The notes beneath the pieces are model-generated. The model did not search any database, was not told where the DNA came from, and was given only the letters and a program-made list of their open reading frames with translations. This document shows positions 2,722-26,670 of a DNA stretch of 30,378 nt, piece after piece. Position 1 is the first letter of the stretch. Every line of letters starts with the position of its first letter. Origin of the DNA: a candidate division TM6 bacterium GW2011_GWF2_37_49. GTDB lineage: Bacteria; Babelota; Babeliae; Babelales; RVW-14. The stretch covers positions 1-30,378 of the forward strand of contig CAMATL010000013.1 in assembly GCA_945861145.1 (NCBI GenBank), in the 5' to 3' direction. The translations under genes and the position numbers were made by a program.

Positions 2722-4398
2722 ATGAAACAGCTTAAACGCCTTTGGGCGTACACGAAACGTTATTGGAAGATGTTGGCAGCATCGCTTTCTTCGGCCGCCT
2801 TATTCGGCGTAGTTGCCGCGGGTCCGACCTATCTTTTAAAGCGGGTTGTAGATGATATTTTTGTGAATAAAAATCATCATCTCATTCTTCCCATGGCCTT
2901 TGTATTGGTATTTATTTTTGCCTGCAAGGGCATTTTTAGTTTTTTGACTTCATACACCATGCATTGGGTTGGGCATCGCGTTGTTAACGACATACGTTCC
3001 GATTTGTTGGTAAGCGTTATGTGTTATCCGCTGAGTTTTTTTCAGGCGATGACGACAGGGCAGCTTATGTCACACTTTCTCAATGATGTACAGATGATGC
3101 AAAACGCCGCATCGGCGACCATAAAAAACGGTGTGCGAAGCCTTTTTGAAACAATGTTTTTGATTACTTTTGCTTTTCTTCAAAACTGGCAGCTAGCACT
3201 CATGATGGTGTTAGTGGGGCCGGTGATGGGTGTGATTATTAAAAAAATGGGCGCATCAATCAAGCGTTCATCATATCGCATCCAGCAAGAAGTAGGATCG
3301 CTCAGTGATCAGCTACAAGAAACGTTTAGCGGCATGCGTGAAGTGAAGGCTTTTAATGCTGAAGCTTACCATATTTCTCGCTTCGACAACCAGCTCCAAA
3401 GATTTTTTACGGCGACTATGCGTTTTGTTAAAGCTGAAGCACTGCTTCCTTCGCTCATTGAGCTGGTAACCATGGTTGGTGCAGCGCTTGCGTTTTATGT
3501 GGCAGCACAGCAGGTGATCAGTGGCTACATCACCCCCGGGCAATTAACGTCATTTGTGGCGGCATCACTTTTGGCCTATGCGCCGATGAAGCGACTTATC
3601 AATGTGTATGGTGAAATTCAATATGCTTTGGCTGCAGCAGATCGTGTTTTTATGCTGATGGATCGTGTGGTGCCTGCGCAACGCATTGGGCAGCACATAT
3701 CGTTTAAAGAGCAAATTTCATTCAATAATTTATCATTTGCCTACGCGCCAGACCGCCCGGTACTGCGCAATATTAATTTGACACTAAAAAAAGGCGAGCG
3801 GGTTGGCATTGTTGGGCCTTCTGGAGGGGGCAAGAGCACGTTGATTGACCTTCTGCTTGGCTTTATCACTCCGATTGACGGGACCATTACCATTGATGGC
3901 CAGGTGCTTACGCTGGGGAATGGTGCGCAGTGGCGTCACTATGTTGGTTATGTTGGCCAGCGGCCATTTTTGTTTAATGATACCGTACAAAACAATGTGA
4001 TGTATGGTCGAACTAAATTGAATCAAGAATCTATTCAGACGGCAATTGAAGCGGCTGATGCTCAAGATTTTGTCTGTGCGTTAGCAAAGGGATACGACAC
4101 CATGCTGGGTGAAAACGGCAATCTCTTGTCTGGCGGGCAACGACAACGGTTAACGATTGCACGAGCGCTTGCTGGGCGCCCACAATTATTAATTTTTGAT
4201 GAAGCGACTGCATCGCTTGATGCAGCTTCTGAAGATGAAATAAAAAACTCATTACAGCGCTTGCCTGCCGATGTGACCGTAATTATCGTTACGCATCGAG
4301 CCTCATTGCTTAAAGCCGTAGATCGAGTATTGCTTGTGGATGACAATTCGGTGCGTGTTGTACTCAAAGATCAGGCGCTGCGTTCGGTAGCGGTCTAA
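2722..4398 (+). CDS. ABC exporter, fused permease + ATPase (MsbA/lipid A exporter-like)
   Basis: An N-terminal domain with six predicted transmembrane helices, followed by Walker A GPSGGGKST, the ABC signature LSGGQRQRLTIARAL and Walker B LLIFDEATASLD. Confidence 0.9.
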   Translation: MKQLKRLWAYTKRYWKMLAASLSSAALFGVVAAGPTYLLKRVVDDIFVNKNHHLILPMAFVLVFIFACKGIFSFLTSYTMHWVGHRVVNDIRSDLLVSVMCYPLSFFQAMTTGQLMSHFLNDVQMMQNAASATIKNGVRSLFETMFLITFAFLQNWQLALMMVLVGPVMGVIIKKMGASIKRSSYRIQQEVGSLSDQLQETFSGMREVKAFNAEAYHISRFDNQLQRFFTATMRFVKAEALLPSLIELVTMVGAALAFYVAAQQVISGYITPGQLTSFVAASLLAYAPMKRLINVYGEIQYALAAADRVFMLMDRVVPAQRIGQHISFKEQISFNNLSFAYAPDRPVLRNINLTLKKGERVGIVGPSGGGKSTLIDLLLGFITPIDGTITIDGQVLTLGNGAQWRHYVGYVGQRPFLFNDTVQNNVMYGRTKLNQESIQTAIEAADAQDFVCALAKGYDTMLGENGNLLSGGQRQRLTIARALAGRPQLLIFDEATASLDAASEDEIKNSLQRLPADVTVIIVTHRASLLKAVDRVLLVDDNSVRVVLKDQALRSVAV

Positions 4399-4525
4399 AA
4401 ATAGTAAAAGGCCCCCGAGATTTCTCTCGAGGGCCTTTTTTCATTACTAAAAGTGCTCACACCTAAGCAGCTTTATTATCTTTGTCTTTTTCTTGTTAAC
4501 CAAGCGTGCCAAGGAACGCCGGCAA
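4396..4525. repeat. Direct-repeat copy (~94% identity) of 6677..6807: terminator plus degraded flotillin C-terminal codons (minus strand reads ...LPAFLGTLG-stop)
   Basis: Direct nucleotide comparison with 6677..6807 shows 8 mismatches over about 130 bp. In this copy Gln -> stop (gttgacc -> gttaacc). Confidence 0.85.
4406..4441. terminator. Rho-independent bidirectional terminator (A-tract, 11-bp stem with one mismatch, T-tract); copy 1 of a duplicated element
   Basis: aaaa GGCCCCCGAGA tttc TCTCGAGGGCC tttttt lies immediately after the ABC-exporter stop codon. Confidence 0.7.
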
Positions 4526-5796: not shown

Positions 5797-5856
5797 ACAA
5801 AAACTAATGCCACTCATTGCTGCAATATCATGCAACGGCGGTAGCGACTTGACCAT
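5797..5856. repeat. Second piece of the degraded flotillin 3'-end copy (~86% identity to 6812..6871); minus strand reads ...MVKSLPPLHDIAAMSGI
   Basis: Aligns to the intact flotillin codons ...SMVKSLPPLHDIAALSGI. Together with 4396..4525 it forms one remnant, split by the 4526..5796 insert, which sits exactly where the intact copy has gtct. Confidence 0.8.
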
Positions 5857-5962
5857 GCAGCTCATAGCCCGACTCAAACCCTAGTCATTTAGGACGAAAA
5901 CATTGTAGTTATTGCATGAAATAGTACCTTAATGATAGTCTCTTTGGAGATAGGAGGACCTT

Positions 5963-6283
5963 ATGATCACAAAAGAATTATTTGATGAGATCACACGTCG
6001 TTTAGTTCAAGCATACGATCCTGAAGCAATTTATCTTTTTGGATCTTACGCATGGGGTTCACCAACCGATGATAGCGACGTTGATCTTGCAATTATTGTA
6101 CGGGTAGCAAACCCTCGCCGTATTAAACGTACACTTGCCGCTTCAGAAGCATTATGGGGACTCGGCATCTCCAAAGACGTAATCGTTTACACGCAAGAAG
6201 AATTTGCTCGTGCAGCAGAACATCCTTCAACACTGGCCCATAAAATTTTACAAGAGGGACATGTGTTGTATGGAAAGGCATGA
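5963..6283 (+). CDS. Minimal nucleotidyltransferase (MNT, NTP_transf_2-type), antitoxin-like partner of the downstream HEPN protein
   Basis: Contains the G-S-x9-13-D-x-D motif (LFGSYAWGSPTDDSDVDL). Small at 106 aa. RBS ggagataggagga lies upstream. Confidence 0.8.
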   Translation: MITKELFDEITRRLVQAYDPEAIYLFGSYAWGSPTDDSDVDLAIIVRVANPRRIKRTLAASEALWGLGISKDVIVYTQEEFARAAEHPSTLAHKILQEGHVLYGKA

Positions 6284-6686
6284 ACTATGGCTTTATAAAG
6301 CTGAGGGGGATCTGGCTCTTGCGATAGAGGCATTGGCTATACCAAATGAAAAAATTCGGGATGCCGCAATTTATCACACGCAACAAGCTGCTGAAAAAGC
6401 ATTAAAGGCTTTTCTCGTTTTTAAGCGCGAACCATTACTCAGAACACACGACCTAGAAGATCTTCTCTGGATATGCATGAAGCATGATATTTCGTTCAAT
6501 TATCTTTTTAGATTTGCAGCACAGCTCAATCCTTTAATTATGGAATATCGCTATCCACTCGAAGATTTTGATGAACCTCAAACACCGTTGCCTGAAGAGT
6601 TAAGAGAGGCAATAGAAGCCGCAACAGAGGTTTTTAAGTTTGTAGTCGATATGATCGCAACTGATTCCGTCAGCAGTAAAAAATAG
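6270..6686 (+). CDS. HEPN-domain protein (PF05168-like), toxin-like partner of the MNT
   Basis: Contains ...HTQQAAEKALKAFLVFKREPLLRTHDLEDLL (an R-x6-H-type HEPN motif). Overlaps the MNT gene by 14 bp. Start chosen at ATG 6270, which has an acceptable spacing to the GAGGGA upstream. Alternative start ATG 6261. The listed ORF begins further upstream at 6204. Confidence 0.75.
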   Translation: MERHELWLYKAEGDLALAIEALAIPNEKIRDAAIYHTQQAAEKALKAFLVFKREPLLRTHDLEDLLWICMKHDISFNYLFRFAAQLNPLIMEYRYPLEDFDEPQTPLPEELREAIEAATEVFKFVVDMIATDSVSSKK

Positions 6687-6687
6687 T

Positions 6688-6724
6688 AAAAGGCCCACGG
6701 AATTTCTCTCGAGGGCCTTTTCTC
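6688..6724. terminator. Copy 2 of the duplicated terminator-like element (weaker stem than copy 1), between the convergent HEPN and flotillin genes
   Basis: aaaaGGCCCacggaatttctctcGAGGGCCttttctc. Confidence 0.45.
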
Positions 6725-6744
6725 ATTACTAAAAGTGCTCACAC

Positions 6745-8097
6745 CTAAGCAGCTTTATTATCTTTGTCTTTTTCTTGTTGACCAAGCGTGCCGAGGAACG
6801 TTGGTAAGTCTATGCCACTCAACGCTGCAATATCATGCAACGGCGGCAGTGATTTGACCATGCTGCTCATAAAGTTTGCGGTAGATGAGCCACCCTTGTC
6901 GCCATTGCCACTGTCCCAAACCGTGATCTTATCAATCTTAAGATTTTTGATCGCTTCGGTTTGGAGCTTGACCATTTCTTCCATCTTTTCGACTAAGAGC
7001 ATGGTTGCAGCTTCGCGAGGGTTACCACCGCAAGCATTAACCAACATACGGTAACCATCTGCCTTAGCAGCCAATACCTTCAAGGTACCTTCAGCTTCAG
7101 CCTGCTTAAGGGCAATTACAGCTGCTGCTTTACCGGTAGCTTCAATTCTTTCACGATCAGCCTCAGCCGCTGCATCGATCGATATTTTACGCTTTTCAAT
7201 TTCTTTGGGCACAATTTGCTCTGCTTCAAGACGCGCAAGCTCAGAAAGGCTTTTTGCTCTGCTGATCTCAGCATTTGATTGCTGTTGTGACACCTGGCCA
7301 CGCATAGCCGCTTCTGATTCACGTTGCAAAAGTTCTGCATTAAATGCTGCAATTCTTGCTCGTGCATCGTTTTCGCCCTGTACCGCTTCAGCATTAAAGC
7401 TGGTTACTTTGATACGACGTTCGCGATCCGCTTCTGCACTACCAATATCGCCGCGCTTTTCTTGTTCAGCCACATCTACTTTAGCTTGGTTGATAGCGGT
7501 TGAAGCCGCTTTTTTACCAATGCTTTCAATATAACCAGACTCATCCGTGATATCGGTGATGTTTACGTTAAGCAACATCAAACCAATTTTACGAAGCTCA
7601 GGCTCAATGTGCTTGCGAATTTCCATCAAAAAGCGCTCACGGTCTTGGTTGATTTCTTCAATACGCAAAGAAGCAACCGTCAAACGTAGCTGACCAATAA
7701 TGATTTCAGTCGCCATCATCTCAATGCCTTTGATTGGCAAGCCCAACAAGCGAACTGATGCGTTATTCATCGCTTCAGCTGTCGTATCAATCGCCACCGT
7801 AAAAGTACTTGGCACGTTGATACGAATATTTTGCTGAGACAGCGCCGACTTAAGCGGGATGTGCAAAGTAATCGGGGTCAAATCGAGATAATCATAATCT
7901 TGGATCAATGGCCACACAAAGGTACCACCGCCATGATAACATCTAACCGACTCGCCGCCCGTCACCTTACCATACACGGCTAAGATGCGGTTTGATGGAC
8001 AACGCTTGTAGCAATTGGCCAAAAACACGAAGGTGAAAAAAATGAACGCTGTGGCTGCTACAATCGCAGCTACAAAAAAGTTAATCGTTACAAACAT
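6745..8097 (-). CDS. Flotillin-like SPFH/band-7 protein (FloA/YqiK-type)
   Basis: N-terminal transmembrane helix, an SPFH domain, then a long Ala/Glu-rich coiled-coil region (EAEQIVPKEIEKRKISIDAAAEADRERIEATGKAAAVIALKQAEAEG...). Confidence 0.85.
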   Translation of the reverse strand: MFVTINFFVAAIVAATAFIFFTFVFLANCYKRCPSNRILAVYGKVTGGESVRCYHGGGTFVWPLIQDYDYLDLTPITLHIPLKSALSQQNIRINVPSTFTVAIDTTAEAMNNASVRLLGLPIKGIEMMATEIIIGQLRLTVASLRIEEINQDRERFLMEIRKHIEPELRKIGLMLLNVNITDITDESGYIESIGKKAASTAINQAKVDVAEQEKRGDIGSAEADRERRIKVTSFNAEAVQGENDARARIAAFNAELLQRESEAAMRGQVSQQQSNAEISRAKSLSELARLEAEQIVPKEIEKRKISIDAAAEADRERIEATGKAAAVIALKQAEAEGTLKVLAAKADGYRMLVNACGGNPREAATMLLVEKMEEMVKLQTEAIKNLKIDKITVWDSGNGDKGGSSTANFMSSMVKSLPPLHDIAALSGIDLPTFLGTLGQQEKDKDNKAA

Positions 8098-20924: not shown

Positions 20925-20926
20925 AT

Positions 20927-20969
20927 AAAAAGAGAGATCCCTGGCCCTTGCCAGGGATCTCTCTTTTTA
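20927..20969 (+). terminator. Strong rho-independent terminator, bidirectional in form (A-tract, 14-bp perfect stem, T-tract)
   Basis: aaaAGAGAGATCCCTGGcccttgCCAGGGATCTCTCTttttt. Confidence 0.85.
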
Positions 20970-20987: not shown

Positions 20988-22697
20988 ATGCACATCATTA
21001 TCCCAATGTCTGGCGTAGGCGCACGATTTCAAGCCGCAGGATACAAAGACCCCAAGCCTCTTATCTTGGTAGATGGCAAACCAATTATTGAGCATGTGGT
21101 TAATCTTTTTCCAGGCGAAACAAAATTCACCTTCATCTGCAATGAAGAGCATTTACAAACCACCGCAATGCGTGAAATCTTACAACGCATTGCTCCCTTA
21201 AGCTCCATTGCAAGCATCCCTCCACACAAGTTAGGCCCCGTATTTGCAACACTGCAAATGCAAGATTTAATCGATGACCAAGAAGAAGTAATCGTTAATT
21301 ATTGCGATTTTGGCACCTACTGGGATTACCAAGATTTTTTAAGCCACACGCGCAATCGCGCCGCCGCCGGAGCTATTCCAGCCTATCGAGGTTTTCATCC
21401 CCACATGCTTGGTACCACTAACTACGCATTTATTAAAGATTCAAATCAATGGCTAGAAGCCATTAAAGAAAAAGAACCTTGGACCAATAATCGCCTGCAA
21501 GAATATGCCTCCAATGGCACCTATTATTTCGCACGCGGCAGCTACGTAAAAAAATATTTTGAACAGGCAATCAAGCGCAATTTAAGCATCCCCGGTGCGA
21601 CCGGTGCGAATGGCGAATTTTATGTAAGCCTTGTGTACAACCTCATGGTTGAAGACAAATTACCAGTCTCAATCTACGAAATTCAGCATATGCTGCAGTG
21701 GGGAACCCCGCAAGATTTACGCGAATACGAAGCCTGGTCTGGCTATTTTCGCCAGCTTGTGGAAAAACCAAGCATCTCTCAATCTGTTGAACAGCGGAGC
21801 GTTAACCTTATCCCGCTCGCAGGGCGCGGCAAACGATTTGCTGACGAAGGCTACACTACACCAAAGCCTTTAATTCCAGTCAGCGGTAAGCCCATGATTG
21901 TACAAGCAGCGGCAGCACTGCCACGAGCAGAACAGCAAATATTTGTGTGTTTACAAGATCATTTAAATACCGCCCCGCTTAAACAAGCACTTAAGCAGGC
22001 CTACCCTCATGCATCGGTGATTGGTATCAATGCCGTCACAGAAGGGCAAGCTTGTACGTGCGCCATTGGATTGAATAATGTTGCCCCTGAAGCACCTGTT
22101 ACTATTGGCGCTTGTGACAACAGCATGCTTTTCGATAGAAAAAAGTATGAGGCTTTGCGCGATCGCGCTGATGTCGATGCCATCATATGGACATTTAAAA
22201 ATCATCCTTCTGCAAAAACTAATCCACAAATGTACGGGTGGGTTATCACTGATGATCAAAATAAGGCCGTAGGCGTTTCAGTAAAAAAAGCAATCTCATC
22301 TACGCCTGAAAAAGACCATGCCATTGTTGGTGCTTTTTATTTTAAAAAAGCAGCTCATTTCACGGCAGGACTTGAATCACTCTATAAAAACAATATTCGC
22401 ATAAATAATGAATTTTATGTCGACAGCCTCTGCGGAGAGCTGATCAAACTCGGGCTCAATGTTTATGTCTTTGAAGTTGATTTTTATGTGTGCTGGGGAA
22501 TCCCAAACGATTTACGCACCTTCAATTACTGGCAAAGCTTTTTCCATAAGTGTTCATGGCACCCCTACTCAATCAGCAAGGATCATATGGTTGCAGCTGA
22601 GGCTCAACAAAAGCTCATTGAGGAAGCAACAACATTTGCACAATCATGTGACTCTTTTTATAGTTCGCAATCAAACGATTTAGCAAAAACGATTTAG
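20988..22697 (+). CDS. Protein with two tandem sugar-phosphate nucleotidyltransferase (NTP_transferase/GxGxR-type) domains
   Basis: Each half begins with the nucleotidyltransferase signature: IIPMSGVGARF...PKPLILVDGKPIIEHV and LIPLAGRGKRF...PKPLIPVSGKPMIVQA. Confidence 0.7.
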   Translation: MHIIIPMSGVGARFQAAGYKDPKPLILVDGKPIIEHVVNLFPGETKFTFICNEEHLQTTAMREILQRIAPLSSIASIPPHKLGPVFATLQMQDLIDDQEEVIVNYCDFGTYWDYQDFLSHTRNRAAAGAIPAYRGFHPHMLGTTNYAFIKDSNQWLEAIKEKEPWTNNRLQEYASNGTYYFARGSYVKKYFEQAIKRNLSIPGATGANGEFYVSLVYNLMVEDKLPVSIYEIQHMLQWGTPQDLREYEAWSGYFRQLVEKPSISQSVEQRSVNLIPLAGRGKRFADEGYTTPKPLIPVSGKPMIVQAAAALPRAEQQIFVCLQDHLNTAPLKQALKQAYPHASVIGINAVTEGQACTCAIGLNNVAPEAPVTIGACDNSMLFDRKKYEALRDRADVDAIIWTFKNHPSAKTNPQMYGWVITDDQNKAVGVSVKKAISSTPEKDHAIVGAFYFKKAAHFTAGLESLYKNNIRINNEFYVDSLCGELIKLGLNVYVFEVDFYVCWGIPNDLRTFNYWQSFFHKCSWHPYSISKDHMVAAEAQQKLIEEATTFAQSCDSFYSSQSNDLAKTI

Positions 22698-22756
22698 CCG
22701 CTACCAAGACAGCTTGAATATTTAAACCTACCTGCACTCAAAAGCCCTGGCAATTC

Positions 22757-22785
22757 TTGACAACAGCTATAAACCCGCGCTAAAT
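22757..22785 (+). promoter_or_regulatory. Sigma70-type promoter of cassette copy 1 (TTGACA, 17-bp spacer, CTAAAT); 48-nt leader conserved with copy 2
   Basis: ttgacaacagctataaacccgcgctaaat. Paralogous block at 25674..25702. Confidence 0.55.
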
Positions 22786-22833
22786 TTCGCCCAGTTAGTC
22801 ATTTATTGCTGATTCCTATTTGAAAGGGCTATC

Positions 22834-23199
22834 ATGGATTTAATTATGAGATGTAATAAGTGCAACAGAGAGGTTCATTTTGCTGAATTTATGGGGTATG
22901 CAACAGGATATTTGCTTGAAAAAATTGGTCCTATGTTATTAGAGGCGACCGTTAAGGCCCTTATTGCATGTCTTACAGCCACAGCAGAAAAATCCTCACC
23001 AAATGCACCTACAGAAATCACCTTACAAACCAGAGGGGTGGTAGATAATACAATGGCTGGTATAGCTCTTTACTTTAAAATTGCCTGCCCTGATTGCAAA
23101 CAATGCTGCTGGCAAGCAGCTTCTACACCTAACGTAGAAATTCAAAAAAAGGCCATACCAAAGAGTCCCCAAAAAAAAGAAGTCTCTACTTCAACTTAA
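22834..23199 (+). CDS. Small cytoplasmic CxxC...CPDC (zinc-ribbon-like) protein with Lys/Ser/Thr-rich C-terminal tail; family A, copy 1
   Basis: MDLIMRCNKCNREVHFAEFMGYA...IACPDCKQCCW...KKAIPKSPQKKEVSTST. Paralogous to 25751..26095. Confidence 0.6.
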   Translation: MDLIMRCNKCNREVHFAEFMGYATGYLLEKIGPMLLEATVKALIACLTATAEKSSPNAPTEITLQTRGVVDNTMAGIALYFKIACPDCKQCCWQAASTPNVEIQKKAIPKSPQKKEVSTST

Positions 23200-23237
23200 T
23201 TTGAAAATTAATTATAAATCGAAGAAAGGGGAGTGTA

Positions 23238-23759
23238 ATGAATGTTTATCAAATTATGTTTATTAGCATACTTGTAGTATCAACACCGCTGATTGCATGG
23301 GACAACAAGGATGTCAATCAAGAATTAGAAATTTCTTGCAATGCTGATTTAACTTCACTTCTCAATGAAAACATCTCCAAATTCACTGTCATGGCTGTTA
23401 AAGCTAACTCGGTGGTAGTTTTTTTTGATGAAAAATTCAATGGCAACCCAGAATTAATTTGTACAAACTGCAGCAGAAGACTTTCTTATGCTGAATTTTT
23501 TGGTGTTATTGGAGCCATGACACTACAAAAAGTGCTAACAAGTAGCGATAAGTTTGAAGTTGTCATCTCTTTTTTTGACTCATTTACTAAGTTACTTGAA
23601 GCAGAAAATTTGGCCGTAATTGCAGCTTTCATGCTGGAATCAATTAAAAAAAAAGATGATCTGAGGAGCTATCCATGCCCAGATTGCAAGAAAAGTAACT
23701 CATGGATTTATGCCCCATATGAATCAGAAGTCAACGCAAAAATCAAAGCCCAGGCATAA
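23238..23759 (+). CDS. Secreted CxxC...CPDC protein; family B, copy 1, distantly related to family A
   Basis: Signal peptide MNVYQIMFISILVVSTPLIA. Core CTNCSRRLSYAEFFG...YPCPDCKKSNSW. RBS aaaggggag. Paralogous to 26134..26670. Confidence 0.6.
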   Translation: MNVYQIMFISILVVSTPLIAWDNKDVNQELEISCNADLTSLLNENISKFTVMAVKANSVVVFFDEKFNGNPELICTNCSRRLSYAEFFGVIGAMTLQKVLTSSDKFEVVISFFDSFTKLLEAENLAVIAAFMLESIKKKDDLRSYPCPDCKKSNSWIYAPYESEVNAKIKAQA

Positions 23760-23787: not shown

Positions 23788-24023
23788 TTGAAGTTGATTT
23801 TTATGTGTGTTGGGGAATCCCAAACGATTTACGCACATTCAATTACTGGCAAAGCTTTTTCCATAAATGTTCATGGCACCCCTACTCAATCAACAAGGAT
23901 GATATGATTGCAGCTGAGGCTCAACAAAAGCTCATTGAGGAAGCAACAACATTTGCACAATCATGTGACTCTTTTTTTACTTCTCAGTTGAGTAAAAAAA
24001 AGGTGACTGAATTATGCAAATAA
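23788..24023 (+). pseudogene. Duplicated 3' fragment of the nucleotidyltransferase gene (~97% identity to 22471..22659). It has no ATG (the listed ORF 23805..24023 starts at a GTG) and preserves a different, probably ancestral, C-terminus overlapping the GNAT start
   Basis: 6 mismatches over about 190 bp against 22471..22659. Homology fades over the next ~13 bp in both copies. In-frame remnant reads ...VCWGIPNDLRTFNYWQSFFHKCSWHPYSI... Confidence 0.75.
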
Positions 24024-24514: not shown

Positions 24515-24559
24515 TCAAACTATACTCTTCATGGTTGAAAAACAGGATTTTGGTGGATC

Positions 24560-24627
24560 CCGGCTCGCAGGCCGGGATGACAGGAGAGGAATGACCTTCT
24601 ACATTGTCATCCCGCCCTGCGAGCCGG
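24560..24627. repeat. GC-rich 23-bp inverted repeat (22/23 match) with a 22-nt spacer, between convergent genes; REP/MITE-like palindrome or bidirectional terminator
   Basis: CCGGCTCGCAGGCCGGGATGACA ... TGTCATCCCGCCCTGCGAGCCGG. Each arm also carries an internal CCGG...CCGG mini-palindrome. Confidence 0.6.
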
Positions 24628-24708
24628 AATACATTCTTGATATAAAAAAGTCAGTATTTTCAAGAGGGTTGAGTATAATATCAATATTTACTCCAGAATT
24701 CACTTACA

Positions 24709-25599
24709 TCATCCCTCGCGCTTGTAATCGGCAAGTACTTCATCAATAACTCGCCAAGATTTTTCTATCTCAAGGCTATTGGTGCCAGGCAGTGCAGCAC
24801 ATACGATTAAAGCCTTCCACAGGGCCCATCCTCGCCCACGCGCCCAAGTGGCACTATCGAGTGGCAGTGCTGCTCGAAATACATCTCGGCTCTCCCCTTT
24901 GAATAATGTCCAAGCAATCACCAAATCACAAGCAGGGTCGCCGACACCAGAACAACCAAAATCAATGACGGCGCTCAACGCGCCATTTTCAACTAATAGA
25001 TTCCCGACAGCAACATCCCCGTGAAACCAGACAGGAAAGCCTTGCCAGGAGGACTCAAGAGCTTTATCCCATACGGCAGTGACCGCGGCAACATCAATCG
25101 CATCGGCAAGAATCGCGAGCGATTGTCTTATTTCAGCATCATAAATTAACAGTGGCCCGCCACAGCGAGAAAAATTATGTGGTCCTCCGGTAGAGTCGAT
25201 TCGCTGCAGAGCAACTAAAAATTCGGCCAAGGCGGTGGCAAATTGCCACAGGTCAGCAATCCGCTCGATCGACACCGTTTCGCCATCAAGCCACTTATAA
25301 ATAGACCAATGCCATGGATACCCTTGGGCAGGCTTACCCATAGCCAAAGGAACAGGAATCGGGAGAGGCAGAAGTGGAGCCAATTTTGGCAACCAACAAT
25401 GTTCTTTTTCCACCGACGAAACATACTCCTCAGCACTCGGTAGCCGAACTGTCATCTGCTCACCGAGATGAAAAGTTCTGTTGTCCCATCCGCCAAACTC
25501 AACCGGCTTAACCGGAAGGTCAGCCCATTGCGGAAATTGCACGGCAACAAGGCGGCGAACAAGAGCGGCATCAATATGAATTTTGTCTGTGTTTGGCAT
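24709..25599 (-). CDS. APH-fold small-molecule kinase (aminoglycoside/choline/sugar phosphotransferase family), compositionally foreign
   Basis: Contains the catalytic HGDVAVGNLLV and IDFGCSGVGDPACDL motifs. Sampled stretches are 48-57% GC against about 36-40% for neighbouring genes. Amino-acid composition is Ala/Leu/Trp/Gly-rich, typical of a high-GC donor. Confidence 0.75.
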   Translation of the reverse strand: MPNTDKIHIDAALVRRLVAVQFPQWADLPVKPVEFGGWDNRTFHLGEQMTVRLPSAEEYVSSVEKEHCWLPKLAPLLPLPIPVPLAMGKPAQGYPWHWSIYKWLDGETVSIERIADLWQFATALAEFLVALQRIDSTGGPHNFSRCGGPLLIYDAEIRQSLAILADAIDVAAVTAVWDKALESSWQGFPVWFHGDVAVGNLLVENGALSAVIDFGCSGVGDPACDLVIAWTLFKGESRDVFRAALPLDSATWARGRGWALWKALIVCAALPGTNSLEIEKSWRVIDEVLADYKREG

Positions 25600-25673
25600 A
25601 ATTATTTCCTATCAAAAATTTGCATTAGCACTGCAAGCCTCACATCCCTAAGTCTTAACAACCCTCAGGGGCC

Positions 25674-25702
25674 TTGACAATAGCTAGAAATCCGCGTTAA
25701 AT
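25674..25702 (+). promoter_or_regulatory. Sigma70-type promoter of cassette copy 2 (TTGACA, 17-bp spacer, TTAAAT)
   Basis: ttgacaatagctagaaatccgcgttaaat, with the same 48-nt distance to the ATG as copy 1. Confidence 0.55.
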
Positions 25703-25750
25703 TTCGCCCAGTTAGTCATTTATTGATGGTTCCTCAGCGAAAGGATTATC

Positions 25751-26095
25751 ATGGATTTACGAATACGATGTAATAATTGTGAGCGAGAAATGCACTTTTT
25801 TGAATTTATGGGGTATGCAGAAGTGTATTTGGTGACTGCTATTGGAGCAGTTTTAGCACCTTTTGCACTAAAAAAACTCGTTGATTATCTTGCAACACCA
25901 ATAACTACACCTCCAACAAAGGGGCTAATTGATATGCCAATGGCCACATTCGCTCGTCAATTTTTTATTAAATGCCCAGATTGTGGTGAATGTTTTTGGC
26001 AACCAGCTTCTGAACCTAAAACAACTACAATATTTCTGAAAAAAAAGGCCACACCAAAAAGTACCAAAAAGAAGGAAGTTACCACTTCAGTTTAA
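25751..26095 (+). CDS. Small cytoplasmic CxxC...CPDC protein with Lys/Ser/Thr-rich tail; family A, copy 2
   Basis: MDLRIRCNNCEREMHFFEFMGYA...IKCPDCGECFW...KKKATPKSTKKKEVTTSV. About 45% identical to 22834..23199. Confidence 0.6.
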   Translation: MDLRIRCNNCEREMHFFEFMGYAEVYLVTAIGAVLAPFALKKLVDYLATPITTPPTKGLIDMPMATFARQFFIKCPDCGECFWQPASEPKTTTIFLKKKATPKSTKKKEVTTSV

Positions 26096-26133
26096 TTTTA
26101 AAATTAATTAAAAATCGGAGAAAGGAGGATGTA

Positions 26134-26670
26134 ATGAAGCTCTTTAAAATCATATTCTTTATCTTGCTCATGATACCATCATCATCATCAGCAGGATCGG
26201 CTAAAAACACAACCTCCAAGAAACCGTTGGTTTATTCCGCAGAGAAAACACCACCCATCTTCCATAGCAACACCTTCAGCTATCTTGCTATGATTCTAAC
26301 AATGGCCCAAATTACAACTCCTTACATAGAAAAACACGGCGTCCACCCTAGATTAACATGCACAGGCTGTGACAAAATGCTTTCACACATGGAGTTTTTT
26401 ACTGAAGCACAAAGTACGATTTTACTTAAAATAATGTTAGGCACTGATGAAATCGAGATCTTTAAGTCTTTTATAAATAAATTTGCTGAATTACTCATAG
26501 CAGAAAATTACGATGCAATCGCAGCATTCATGATAGAATCACTTCAAAATAAAGATATTATCTCTCGGCCTTGCCCAAGCTGTAATAAAAATGCCTGGGT
26601 TTATAAGCCTGGCGATTTAAATCCAGGTACCAATACAAAAGACCATCCTATTCAACATACTGCCACATAA
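26134..26670 (+). CDS. Secreted CxxC...CPSC protein; family B, copy 2
   Basis: Signal peptide MKLFKIIFFILLMIPSSSSA. Core CTGCDKMLSHMEFF...AENYDAIAAFMIESL...RPCPSCNKNAW. About 45% identical to 23238..23759 over the core. Confidence 0.6.
   Translation: MKLFKIIFFILLMIPSSSSAGSAKNTTSKKPLVYSAEKTPPIFHSNTFSYLAMILTMAQITTPYIEKHGVHPRLTCTGCDKMLSHMEFFTEAQSTILLKIMLGTDEIEIFKSFINKFAELLIAENYDAIAAFMIESLQNKDIISRPCPSCNKNAWVYKPGDLNPGTNTKDHPIQHTAT

What the first reader, a model, noticed from the sequence alone, without database searches (positions are those of the whole stretch)
22757..22850. Promoter and 48-nt leader conserved far better than the coding sequences between the two cassette copies
The -35 TTGACA, 17-bp spacer, -10 (C/T)TAAAT and the leader down to ATGGATTTA are nearly identical between 22757-22842 and 25674-25759. 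This includes a perfect 27-nt block aaatttcgcccagttagtcatttattg and the RBS aaagg.

The downstream ORFs have fallen to roughly 55-60% nucleotide identity. That asymmetry indicates purifying selection on a cis element, such as an operator, an RNA-level regulator or a shared transcription-factor site. The alternative is recent promoter gene-conversion.

The intergenic spacer and RBS between the two genes of each cassette (taatt..aaaattaatta.aaatcg.agaaagg.g..tgtaATGAA) are similarly conserved.
Basis: seen in the sequence. Interest (0 to 1): 0.55.

Follow-up and report, generated by a model that had tools for sequence, protein, structure and literature searches.

The report
Conserved promoter-leader of duplicated gene pair
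The two near-identical non-coding stretches are the promoter and short 5' leader of two copies of a fast-evolving two-gene operon in an uncultured (probably Dependentiae) bacterium; selection has kept this control module for a very long time, and recombination between the two copies has recently made them even more alike, so it is a real but fairly ordinary regulatory module.

Summary
**Observation:** confirmed. From the -35 to the ATG, copy A (22756-22833) and copy B (25673-25750) are 66/78 identical. They share a perfect 27-mer. ORF1 is 64% identical, ORF2 52%, and the sequence upstream of the -35 is at 30%.

**Purifying selection.**
- The same module sits upstream of every ORF1-type gene I could recover: L011, L012, L028, L031 and L035.
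- It lies in the same register, with a single 1-nt indel.
- Identity is 56-62% where the ORF1 proteins are only 25-30% identical and third codon positions are random.
- The invariant bases fall on canonical signals: TGAC of the -35, T-A...T of a TAAATT -10, AG at the predicted start site, UUUAUU, the GAAAGG ribosome-binding site, and the ATG.

**Recombination between the copies.**
- A and B promoters (85-94% identical) are closer to each other than to their orthologues (71% and 79%). The ORF bodies show the opposite.
- In strains with 98-99.9% identical flanks, the B promoter differs at 14/78 positions while ORF1B differs at 0-1/345. Nine of the 14 changes are to the A state.
- The perfect 27-mer is missing from that allele.

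**What was not found:** no RNA structure, no Rfam family, no nearby regulator and no dispersed copies.

**Verdict:** an undescribed but conventional expression module, evolving in concert between the two copies.

The parts
22757..22762 (+). -35 hexamer TTGACA of cassette A
   Evidence: TGAC is invariant in all 9 aligned copies.
22781..22786 (+). -10 hexamer TAAATT of cassette A, with an 18-nt spacer.
   Evidence: One search gives 10/12 consensus matches. T, A and the final T are invariant in six independent lineages.
22782..22808 (+). Perfect 27-mer shared with 25699-25725. It spans the -10, the predicted start site and the UUUAUU block.
   Evidence: It is absent from the type-2 B allele, which has 4 differences, and from L011 and L012.
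22792..22796 (+). CAGTT. The predicted transcription start is A22793, 7 nt after the -10.
   Evidence: AG and T are invariant in all lineages. The start site is inferred, not mapped.
22802..22807 (+). TTTATT (UUUAUU in the leader), 14 nt upstream of the ribosome-binding site.
   Evidence: Present in all 9 copies, offset by one base in L035. In L035 it keeps register with the ribosome-binding site and ATG rather than with the -10.
22822..22828 (+). Ribosome-binding site GAAAGGG of ORF1A, followed by CTATC and the ATG.
22834..23199 (+). ORF1A, 121 aa. It has CxxC...CPDCxxC motifs and a lysine-rich tail, and no signal peptide.
   Evidence: No Pfam match. The 3' end 23141-23199 carries a second paralogue-like (converted) signal.
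23200..23237 (+). Intergenic spacer carrying the ORF2 ribosome-binding site AAGGGGAG (23226-23233).
   Evidence: 32/38 identical to copy B. A GGGGAG(A)GTAG-type site is conserved in L028, L029, L031 and L032, with the weaker variant GAGGCGAGAGTAG in L035.
23238..23759 (+). ORF2A, 173 aa. It has a signal-peptide-like N-terminus followed by a four-cysteine helical domain.
25674..25750 (+). Promoter and leader of cassette B: -35 25674-25679, -10 25698-25703, 27-mer 25699-25725, ribosome-binding site 25739-25744.
   Evidence: Three alleles exist in related strains.
25751..26095 (+). ORF1B, 114 aa.
26096..26133 (+). Intergenic spacer and ORF2 ribosome-binding site of cassette B.
26134..26670 (+). 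ORF2B, 178 aa.
22471..22669 (+). Direct repeat D1, copy a: the real 3' end of the 569-aa nucleotidyltransferase gene. Together with 23788-23986 it brackets cassette A.
23788..23986 (+). Direct repeat D1, copy b: a 95% identical remnant of the same gene end.
   Evidence: L019 carries a single hybrid copy and has no cassette A.

Best explanation
Each conserved stretch is the expression module of a two-gene operon (ORF1 then ORF2).

**Anatomy of the module:**
- a sigma-70-type promoter: TTGACA, an 18-nt spacer ending in CCGCG, then TAAATT;
- a predicted start at the A of CAGTT;
- an unstructured leader of about 41 nt with UUUAUU, a pyrimidine tract and the ribosome-binding site GAAAGG(G), all at fixed distances from the ATG.

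The leader is about as long as the part of an mRNA that a 30S ribosomal subunit covers upstream of a start codon (textbook knowledge). Promoter plus ribosome landing pad therefore leave almost no free sequence. ORF2 has its own conserved strong ribosome-binding site in the 38-nt spacer.

**Two processes give the pattern seen in the window:**
1. Long-term purifying selection. The module has travelled with this cassette family since before the A/B split and is its best-conserved part.
2. Recombination (gene conversion or unequal exchange) between the A and B copies, which lie 2.9 kb apart, and between strains. This homogenised the promoter-leader and the 3' end of ORF1, and produced the allele-specific perfect 27-mer.

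The proteins meanwhile diverge fast and are often inactivated.

**Shown:** the conservation, the shared register, the mosaic alleles and the conflict between promoter and ORF phylogenies.

**Inferred:** promoter activity, the start site, and the translational role of UUUAUU.
For: **Deep conservation**
- An 8-sequence ungapped alignment runs from the -35 to the ATG.
- Identity of copy A to L028 is 48/78 and to L031 46/78. Shuffles give 20 +/- 4, with 0 of 20,000 reaching the observed value.
- Identity to L035 is 44/78 ungapped. A profile built without L035 finds it at E = 3e-14.
- ORF1 in these pairs is 25-30% identical in protein, 45-46% in nucleotides and 32-37% at third positions.
- Among closer orthologues the promoter-leader is 67-82% identical, against 21-52% at four-fold degenerate sites.
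- 20 invariant and 20 near-invariant positions of 78 fall on the -35, the T-A...T of the -10, AG at +1, TTTATT, the ribosome-binding site and the ATG.

**Conversion or recombination**
- Three-taxon site counts, sites where A=B but not L011 against sites where A=L011 but not B: promoter-leader 15:4, ORF1 middle 18:35 (P = 0.001), ORF1 3' end 18:4 (P = 0.0003). Counts against L012 shift the same way.
- The A promoter differs from the three B alleles at 12, 8 and 5 sites. The B alleles differ from each other at 14, 9 and 9. The A promoter therefore sits inside B-allele diversity, although ORF1A and ORF1B are only 50% identical in protein.
- Window against L024: flanks are 98-99.9% identical, ORF1B has 1/345 differences, the promoter 14/78 (P = 5e-10). 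Nine of the 14 changes are to the A state (P = 4e-9).
- A clear conversion tract exists between the two ORF2 copies of L012: 107/116 identical against 209/376 elsewhere.
- L007 joins B-type upstream sequence to cassette A.

**No special RNA element**
- Fold z-scores are -0.3 to +0.6.
- The consensus structure is -0.55 kcal/mol with no compensatory pairs.
- No Rfam hit falls in the region.

**Not dispersed**
- Across the window and all loci held up, the profile hits only sites upstream of ORF1-type genes (209 kb; nine later loci).
- The 25-nt pattern has 0 matches in 596 Gb of reference genomes.
Against: - There is no transcript data, so the promoter and the start site are predictions. Promoter rules for this phylum are untested.
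- The spacer block CCGCG and the block between +1 and +16 are more conserved than canonical signals strictly require. An unseen regulator site could overlap them.
- The direction and number of conversion events cannot be resolved. L011 has a long branch in the promoter, which inflates one of the three-taxon counts.
- L019 carries the A-like type-2 allele but lacks cassette A at the usual site. Some allele exchange must therefore be between strains rather than within one genome.
- The claim that UUUAUU is tied to the ribosome-binding site rests on a single indel, in L035.
Confidence: 0.7

Rival explanations
1. A dedicated regulator site. Under this reading, the block from the -10 to about +16 (TAAATT...CAGTT...TTTATTG), and perhaps the CCGCG of the spacer, is an operator or an RNA-binding site for a specific trans-acting factor that controls all cassettes of this family. 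The factor could be ORF1 itself, which has a zinc-ribbon-like four-cysteine motif and a lysine-rich tail.
For: Conservation goes beyond the minimal -35, -10 and ribosome-binding signals. AG-T and TTTATT are invariant and CCGCG nearly so. The same module lies in front of at least three cassettes found in the same samples: A, B and L035. ORF1 is cytoplasmic-looking and has a basic tail.
Against: No dyad symmetry is conserved between copies (by inspection). No RNA structure is detected. No DNA-binding domain is detected in ORF1 or in neighbouring genes. The type-2 allele changes 4 bases inside the block and is common. The motif is not found in front of any other gene in the sequence held.
Confidence: 0.2
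2. Purifying selection alone. Under this reading, the A-B similarity simply reflects very strong constraint, and no conversion is needed.
For: The module is conserved at all evolutionary depths. Of the four type-2 differences inside the 27-mer, two look like novelties of that allele.
Against: A and B are more alike (85-94%) than either is to its orthologue (71% and 79%), while the ORFs show the reverse. The B promoter is the most variable segment between near-identical strains, at 18% against 0-2%. That is the opposite of strong site-by-site constraint.
Confidence: 0.07
3. Gene conversion alone. Under this reading, the region is ordinary neutral spacer that was recently copied between the cassettes.
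For: The alleles are mosaic and the perfect 27-mer is allele-specific. Conversion tracts occur elsewhere in the family.
Against: Conversion cannot act between different organisms. Yet the module is 56-79% identical and in register in L011, L012, L028, L031 and L035, where third codon positions are saturated. Sequence just upstream of the -35 is unrelated.
Confidence: 0.05
4. A boundary or recombination site of a mobile gene cassette (integron-like or transposon end). Under this reading, the sharp homology edge at the -35 is an insertion junction.
For: The homology edge is sharp at 22756/25673. Cassette A is bracketed by a 199-nt direct repeat and is absent from L019. The cassettes sit in different neighbourhoods in distant lineages.
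Against: No integrase or transposase lies nearby. No terminal inverted repeats or attC-like structure were found. The bracketing repeat is a duplicated gene end, typical of homologous recombination. The conserved bases match promoter and ribosome-binding consensus positions.
Confidence: 0.03

Closest known systems
Bacterial sigma-70 (housekeeping) promoter with a short unstructured 5' UTR and Shine-Dalgarno site
   Same: A perfect TTGACA, an 18-nt spacer and a TAAATT that keeps the critical A at position 2 and T at position 6. A purine start about 7 nt downstream, an A/U-rich leader, and a GAAAGG site 5-6 nt before the ATG.
   Different: The whole 78 nt is conserved in register across cassettes whose proteins are only 25-30% identical. 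The conserved bases include ones with no canonical role: CCGCG in the spacer and UUUAUU at +10 to +15. Nothing has been tested experimentally in this phylum.
Concerted evolution (gene conversion) of duplicated bacterial genes, as described for tufA/tufB and rRNA operons (from general knowledge)
   Same: Paralogues in one genome are more alike than their orthologues. The tracts are patchy and the alleles are mosaics.
   Different: Here the homogenised tracts are the promoter-leader and the ORF1 3' end, while the ORF bodies stay about 50% diverged. Exchange between strains also contributes.
Cis-regulatory RNA leaders (riboswitches, ribosomal-protein leaders, RNA thermometers)
   Same: A conserved 5' leader ahead of a small operon. 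A weak UCCU/AGG pairing with the ribosome-binding site is possible.
   Different: No Rfam match, no stable or covarying structure, and a leader of only about 41 nt.

Membership tests
Sigma-70-type promoter | -35 hexamer close to TTGACA | tested here: met
   TTGACA is 6/6 in both copies. TGAC is invariant in 9 copies.
Sigma-70-type promoter | -10 hexamer close to TATAAT, with A at position 2 and T at position 6, 16-18 nt from the -35 | tested here: met
   TAAATT is 4/6 with an 18-nt spacer. T, A and the last T are invariant in six lineages.
Sigma-70-type promoter | Transcription actually starts about 7 nt downstream of the -10 | not testable with these tools
   No transcript data are available. 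The start at A22793/A25710 is inferred.
Structured cis-regulatory RNA (Rfam family, riboswitch or leader) | Match to a curated covariance model | tested here: not met
   No hit falls in 22700-22850 or 25650-25770, even at E up to 5.
Structured cis-regulatory RNA (Rfam family, riboswitch or leader) | A stable fold better than shuffles, with covarying pairs | tested here: not met
   Fold z-scores are -0.33 to +0.58. The consensus structure is -0.55 kcal/mol, with 4 pairs and 0 compensatory changes.
Concerted evolution by gene conversion | Paralogues in one genome are closer than orthologues in the tract, but not outside it | tested here: met
   Site counts are 15:4 and 18:4 in the tracts, against 18:35 in the ORF1 middle. 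The A promoter is nested inside B-allele diversity.
Concerted evolution by gene conversion | Mosaic alleles with abrupt changes of divergence | tested here: met
   14/78 differences in the promoter against 1/345 in the adjacent ORF1B.
Dispersed repeat or mobile-element end | Many copies unrelated to these genes; inverted repeats; a recombinase | tested here: not met
   Copies occur only upstream of ORF1-type genes. There are 0 matches in reference genomes. No recombinase lies nearby. The source genome as a whole could not be scanned.
Operator of a specific transcription factor | Conserved dyad or direct-repeat half-sites and a cognate regulator | tested here: inconclusive
   No conserved dyad was seen in the alignment. 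No regulator gene lies in the window. Binding cannot be tested here.

The most novel reading that the evidence does not exclude
The block from +1 to +16 (CAGTT-N5-TTTATTG), together with the CCGCG just before the -10, could be the recognition site of a dedicated regulator that co-ordinates all copies of this cassette family (A, B and the L035 copy next to dnaK). The family is rare and probably restricted to Dependentiae. The regulator could be ORF1 itself, a four-cysteine, lysine-tailed small protein acting as an autoregulator. That would define a new regulator-operator pair in an uncultured intracellular phylum.
Probability: 0.15. Interest if true: 0.6.

Novelty: new member of a known kind. 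Interest (0 to 1): 0.35.

Why it matters
**What it provides**
- The first comparative definition of a promoter and ribosome-binding region for a lineage with no genetics. The phylum assignment (probably Dependentiae) rests on one NCBI label, on L012.
- A marker for a rare, uncharacterised pair of four-cysteine proteins. One of them looks secreted.
- The family has only about 20 representatives among 1.84 billion protein clusters.

**What it illustrates**
- Concerted evolution here is confined to control regions, while the coding regions diverge and decay.
- The locus is a recombination hot spot inside a cell-envelope glycan gene cluster.

**What it is not**
- It does not reveal a new kind of mechanism.

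Tried and rejected
- **RNA element.** Rfam at a permissive threshold, single-sequence folds and a consensus fold of 8 leaders showed nothing beyond a 4-bp UCCU/AGG pairing of negligible energy.
- **Coding explanations, checked by hand on the sequences.**
  - An N-terminal extension of ORF1 is ruled out. Copy A has an in-frame TGA at 22810-22812, and no upstream start is shared.
  - A leader peptide is ruled out. The short upstream frames differ between copies.
- **Operator dyad.** TAAAT-N15-ATTTA is present in the window. It is not conserved in L011, L012 or L028.
- **Dispersed repeat.** An exact-pattern scan of reference genomes gave 0 matches. A profile search of all sequence held found only the cassette sites.
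- **Protein scan of reference genomes.** It found no relatives.
- **L013.** This metagenome hit looks spurious, with phage-like, unrelated genes.
- **Regulator search.** The window holds no helix-turn-helix or other DNA-binding family. Trp-repressor-family genes lie a few kb from the cassettes in L022 and L030. That looks like neighbourhood conservation and was not pursued.
- **Fold of ORF2.**
  - The AlphaFold model has pLDDT 81 and is a helical bundle clipped by the two CxxC motifs.
  - The afdb50 library was unavailable.
- **Literature.** A search for Dependentiae promoters found nothing relevant.

Full report
**1. What is in the window**

Two two-gene cassettes lie 2.9 kb apart on the + strand.

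| Feature | Cassette A (22756 to about 23787) | Cassette B (25673 to about 26697) |
|---|---|---|
| ORF1 | 22834-23199, 121 aa | 25751-26095, 114 aa |
| Spacer | 38 nt | 38 nt |
| ORF2 | 23238-23759, 173 aa | 26134-26670, 178 aa |

- They sit in a chromosomal cell-envelope sugar cluster with a kinase, a HAD hydrolase, an aldolase, a double nucleotidyltransferase, family-2 glycosyltransferases and membrane proteins. The cluster is downstream of hisS, murE and an msbA-like gene.
- A GNAT acetyltransferase, a GC-rich palindrome and a GC-richer aminoglycoside-phosphotransferase-family (APH) gene lie between A and B.
- The window is identical to an ENA metagenome contig (L001).
- A protein of the related locus L012 is labelled 'Candidatus Dependentiae bacterium' by NCBI. 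The organism is therefore probably an uncultured member of that phylum.

**2.

| Segment | A against B identity |
|---|---|
| Upstream of the -35 | 30% |
| -35 to ATG | 66/78 = 85% |
| ORF1 | 64% |
| Spacer | 32/38 = 84% |
| ORF2 | 52% |

- The 27-mer occurs exactly twice in the window, with none expected by chance.
- The best promoter reading is TTGACA, 18 nt, TAAATT (10 of 12 matches), and it is the top hit of the region in both copies.
- The cassette proteins match no Pfam family.

**3. Related sequences**

The family is very rare. Word-indexed searches of 5.8 billion proteins found only a handful of relatives. An exhaustive profile search of 1.84 billion representatives found about 20.

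From these I recovered the following loci.

- *Strain variants of the window*: L002-L010 and L014-L018.
- *L019*: about 95% identical, and lacks cassette A.
- *L022/L023*: about 90% identical, with a B-type cassette in a different upstream context. Whether that genome has cassette A is unknown.
- *L011*: an A-type orthologue in another organism, ORF1 59% identical.
- *L012*: holds an A-type ORF2 and a full B-type cassette.
- *L028, L031 and L035*: three deeply diverged cassettes, ORF1 25-30% identical.
- L035 comes from the same four samples as the window organism. It may be a third cassette of the same genome, next to dnaK.

**4. Purifying selection is real**

- All nine promoter-leaders align from the -35 to the ATG without gaps, apart from one 1-nt insertion in L035.
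- Copy A matches L028 at 48/78 and L031 at 46/78. Shuffles give 20 +/- 4.
- Copy A matches L035 at 44/78 ungapped. A profile that did not include L035 finds it at E = 3e-14.
- In the same pairs ORF1 is 45-46% identical in nucleotides and 32-37% at third positions, which is random level.
- Among closer orthologues the promoter-leader is 67-82% identical, against 21-52% at four-fold degenerate sites.
- Across six semi-independent lineages, 20 of 78 positions are invariant and 20 more nearly so. They map onto:
  - TGAC of the -35;
  - GCG at the end of the spacer;
  - T-A...T of the -10, the two positions known to matter most;
  - AG-T at the predicted start;
  - TTTATT;
  - a pyrimidine tract;
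  - GAAAGG;
  - CTAT-ATG-GA.
- The ORF2 ribosome-binding site (GGGGAG with a GTAG-type spacer) is likewise kept in distant cassettes.

The control region is its best-conserved part.

**5. Recombination adds to it**

Five observations show that the A-B similarity in this genome exceeds what constraint alone gives.

- *Conflict with the ORF tree.* In the ORF bodies A groups with L011 and B with L012 (39 orthology-type informative sites against 11). In the promoter-leader and in the last 59 nt of ORF1 the two paralogues group together. The site counts are below.

| Segment | Sites where A=B but not L011 | Sites where A=L011 but not B | P against ORF1 middle |
|---|---|---|---|
| Promoter-leader | 15 | 4 | 0.001 |
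| ORF1 3' end | 18 | 4 | 0.0003 |
| ORF1 middle | 18 | 35 | (reference) |

- *Direction of the L012 counts.* Counts against L012 shift the same way (P about 0.005).
- *The A promoter sits inside B-allele diversity.*
  - Three B-promoter alleles exist: type 1 (the window), type 2 (L002, L005, L007, L019, L024, L025) and type 3 (L022/L023).
  - The A promoter differs from them at 12, 8 and 5 sites.
  - They differ from each other at 14, 9 and 9 sites.
  - Yet ORF1A and ORF1B are only 50% identical in protein.
- *Mosaic alleles in near-identical strains.*
  - Between the window and L024 the flanking genes are 98-99.9% identical and ORF1B differs at 1/345.
  - The promoter-leader differs at 14/78 (P = 5e-10).
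  - Nine of the 14 changes take exactly the A state (P = 4e-9).
  - The perfect 27-mer is present in types 1 and 3 but broken at four positions in type 2.
  - At one of those four positions both outgroups agree with type 2. That suggests the window's T was copied from A.
- *Conversion is seen elsewhere in the family.* The two ORF2 copies of L012 are 107/116 identical in a 3' block and 209/376 elsewhere.
- *A recombinant junction.* Contig L007 joins B-type upstream sequence to the A cassette. This is either a recombinant or an assembly chimera.

The direction and number of events cannot be resolved. L019 has the A-like type-2 allele but no cassette A at the usual site, so part of the exchange must be between strains.

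**6. What the element is not**

- No Rfam family matches it.
- Leader folds are no better than shuffles.
- The consensus fold is a 4-bp UCCU/AGG pairing worth -0.55 kcal/mol, with no compensatory change.
- The region is not coding. Copy A has an in-frame stop, and the short upstream frames are not shared between copies.
- It is not a dispersed repeat in the sequence available. Profile hits occur only upstream of ORF1-type genes across the window and all loci held, and the pattern has 0 matches in 596 Gb of reference genomes. The source genome as a whole could not be scanned.
- No DNA-binding regulator is encoded in the window.

**7. Most likely mechanism**

- A housekeeping-type promoter drives a bicistronic mRNA. 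The leader of about 41 nt is essentially the footprint a 30S subunit covers upstream of a start codon.
- UUUAUU lies 14 nt upstream of the ribosome-binding site. In L035, the only copy with an indel, it keeps register with the ribosome-binding site and ATG rather than with the -10.
- This fits a role as an A/U-rich ribosome landing or S1-contact element. That is an inference resting on thin evidence.
- Promoter plus landing pad leave no neutral positions, which explains conservation from the -35 to the ATG.
- The two modules are conserved islands in otherwise diverged neighbours. They are the natural substrates for homologous exchange, which then reinforces their similarity.
- A regulator site overlapping +1 to +16 and the CCGCG block is not excluded. 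I give it about 0.2.

**8. The proteins**

- ORF1 and ORF2 share the CxxC...(A/S)EF motif (E = 9e-5).
- The ORF2 family has four invariant cysteines and a signal-peptide-like N-terminus.
- The model is a confident helical bundle clipped by the two CxxC motifs (pLDDT 81). It has no informative structural neighbour.
- The genes are often broken in relatives:
  - two homopolymer frameshifts in ORF1B of L012;
  - a 1-nt deletion in ORF2B of L016;
  - a lost start codon plus a nonsense codon in L022/L023.
- This fits fast-evolving, dispensable host- or envelope-interaction genes. The promoter is kept in L012 and L022, where ORF2 is still intact.

**9. Verdict**

- The feature is an undescribed instance of a familiar thing: a compact promoter and translation-initiation module under long-term selection, further homogenised by recombination.
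- Interest is modest.

Noticed in passing
22471-22669 and 23788-23986; L019:3620-3915: A 199-nt direct repeat (95% identical) brackets cassette A. It is the 3' end of the 569-aa nucleotidyltransferase gene and a remnant copy of it. The related genome L019 (GCA_945869805.1) has one hybrid copy, with the body of copy a and the tail of copy b, running straight into the GNAT gene with no cassette A. Cassette A is therefore present or absent between strains, consistent with recombination between the repeats.
   Followed up: partly
24554-24633: A GC-rich palindrome with 29-nt arms (90% complementary) and a 22-nt loop lies between the GNAT and APH genes. It resembles a small dispersed palindromic element. 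Its only Rfam hits are sub-threshold microRNA models, which are spurious.
   Followed up: no
24709-25599 (- strand): The aminoglycoside/choline-kinase-type phosphotransferase (APH family) gene is about 50% G+C, against 35-40% for its neighbours. It may have been acquired horizontally. A divergent copy of its 5' end precedes cassette A in contig L007.
   Followed up: partly
L012:1322-1668; L016:1518-1560; L022:5582-5625; L011:182-196: Cassette genes are repeatedly inactivated in relatives. ORF1B of L012 has two homopolymer frameshifts (a T run and an A9 run). ORF2B of L016 has a 1-nt deletion near its start. ORF1B of L022/L023 has ATG changed to ATA and a CGA-to-TGA nonsense codon. L011 has ATC at the conserved start position. 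This could be pseudogenisation or slipped-strand phase variation.
   Followed up: partly
L007:1-233: In one contig (sample GROS21-1), the 86 nt upstream of the cassette A promoter are B-type: the APH 5' end plus intergenic sequence, with 5/86 differences from that contig's own B upstream. This is either the product of unequal exchange between the two promoters or an assembly chimera.
   Followed up: partly
L012:1055-1170 and the matching 3' block of ORF2B (1701-2186): The two ORF2 paralogues of L012 are 107/116 identical in a 3' block but 209/376 identical elsewhere. This is a clear gene-conversion tract within coding sequence in another genome of the family.
   Followed up: yes
L035:2510-3534 (also L036-L038): A third, deeply diverged cassette (ORF1-like 123 aa, ORF2-like 177 aa) lies next to dnaK. 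It occurs in the same four samples as the window organism and carries the same promoter-leader module. It may belong to the same genome.
   Followed up: partly
22834-23759 and 25751-26670: ORF1 and ORF2 are distant paralogues in a rare family defined by four cysteines (CxxC...CxxC). The family has about 20 representatives in 1.84 billion clusters and no Pfam model. ORF2-type members carry signal peptides and some are tandem two-domain proteins. The model is a helical bundle with no informative structural neighbour.
   Followed up: partly
4397-4525 / 6679-6807 and 5807-5866 / 6812-6871; 6204-6686: Two further direct-repeat pairs (93% and 90% identical) surround a HEPN-domain gene in the upstream part of the window. 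This looks like another local duplication or rearrangement.
   Followed up: no
20926-20969: A perfect 20-nt inverted repeat with a 4-nt loop lies between the aldolase-like gene and the nucleotidyltransferase gene. It is probably a terminator or attenuator hairpin.
   Followed up: no
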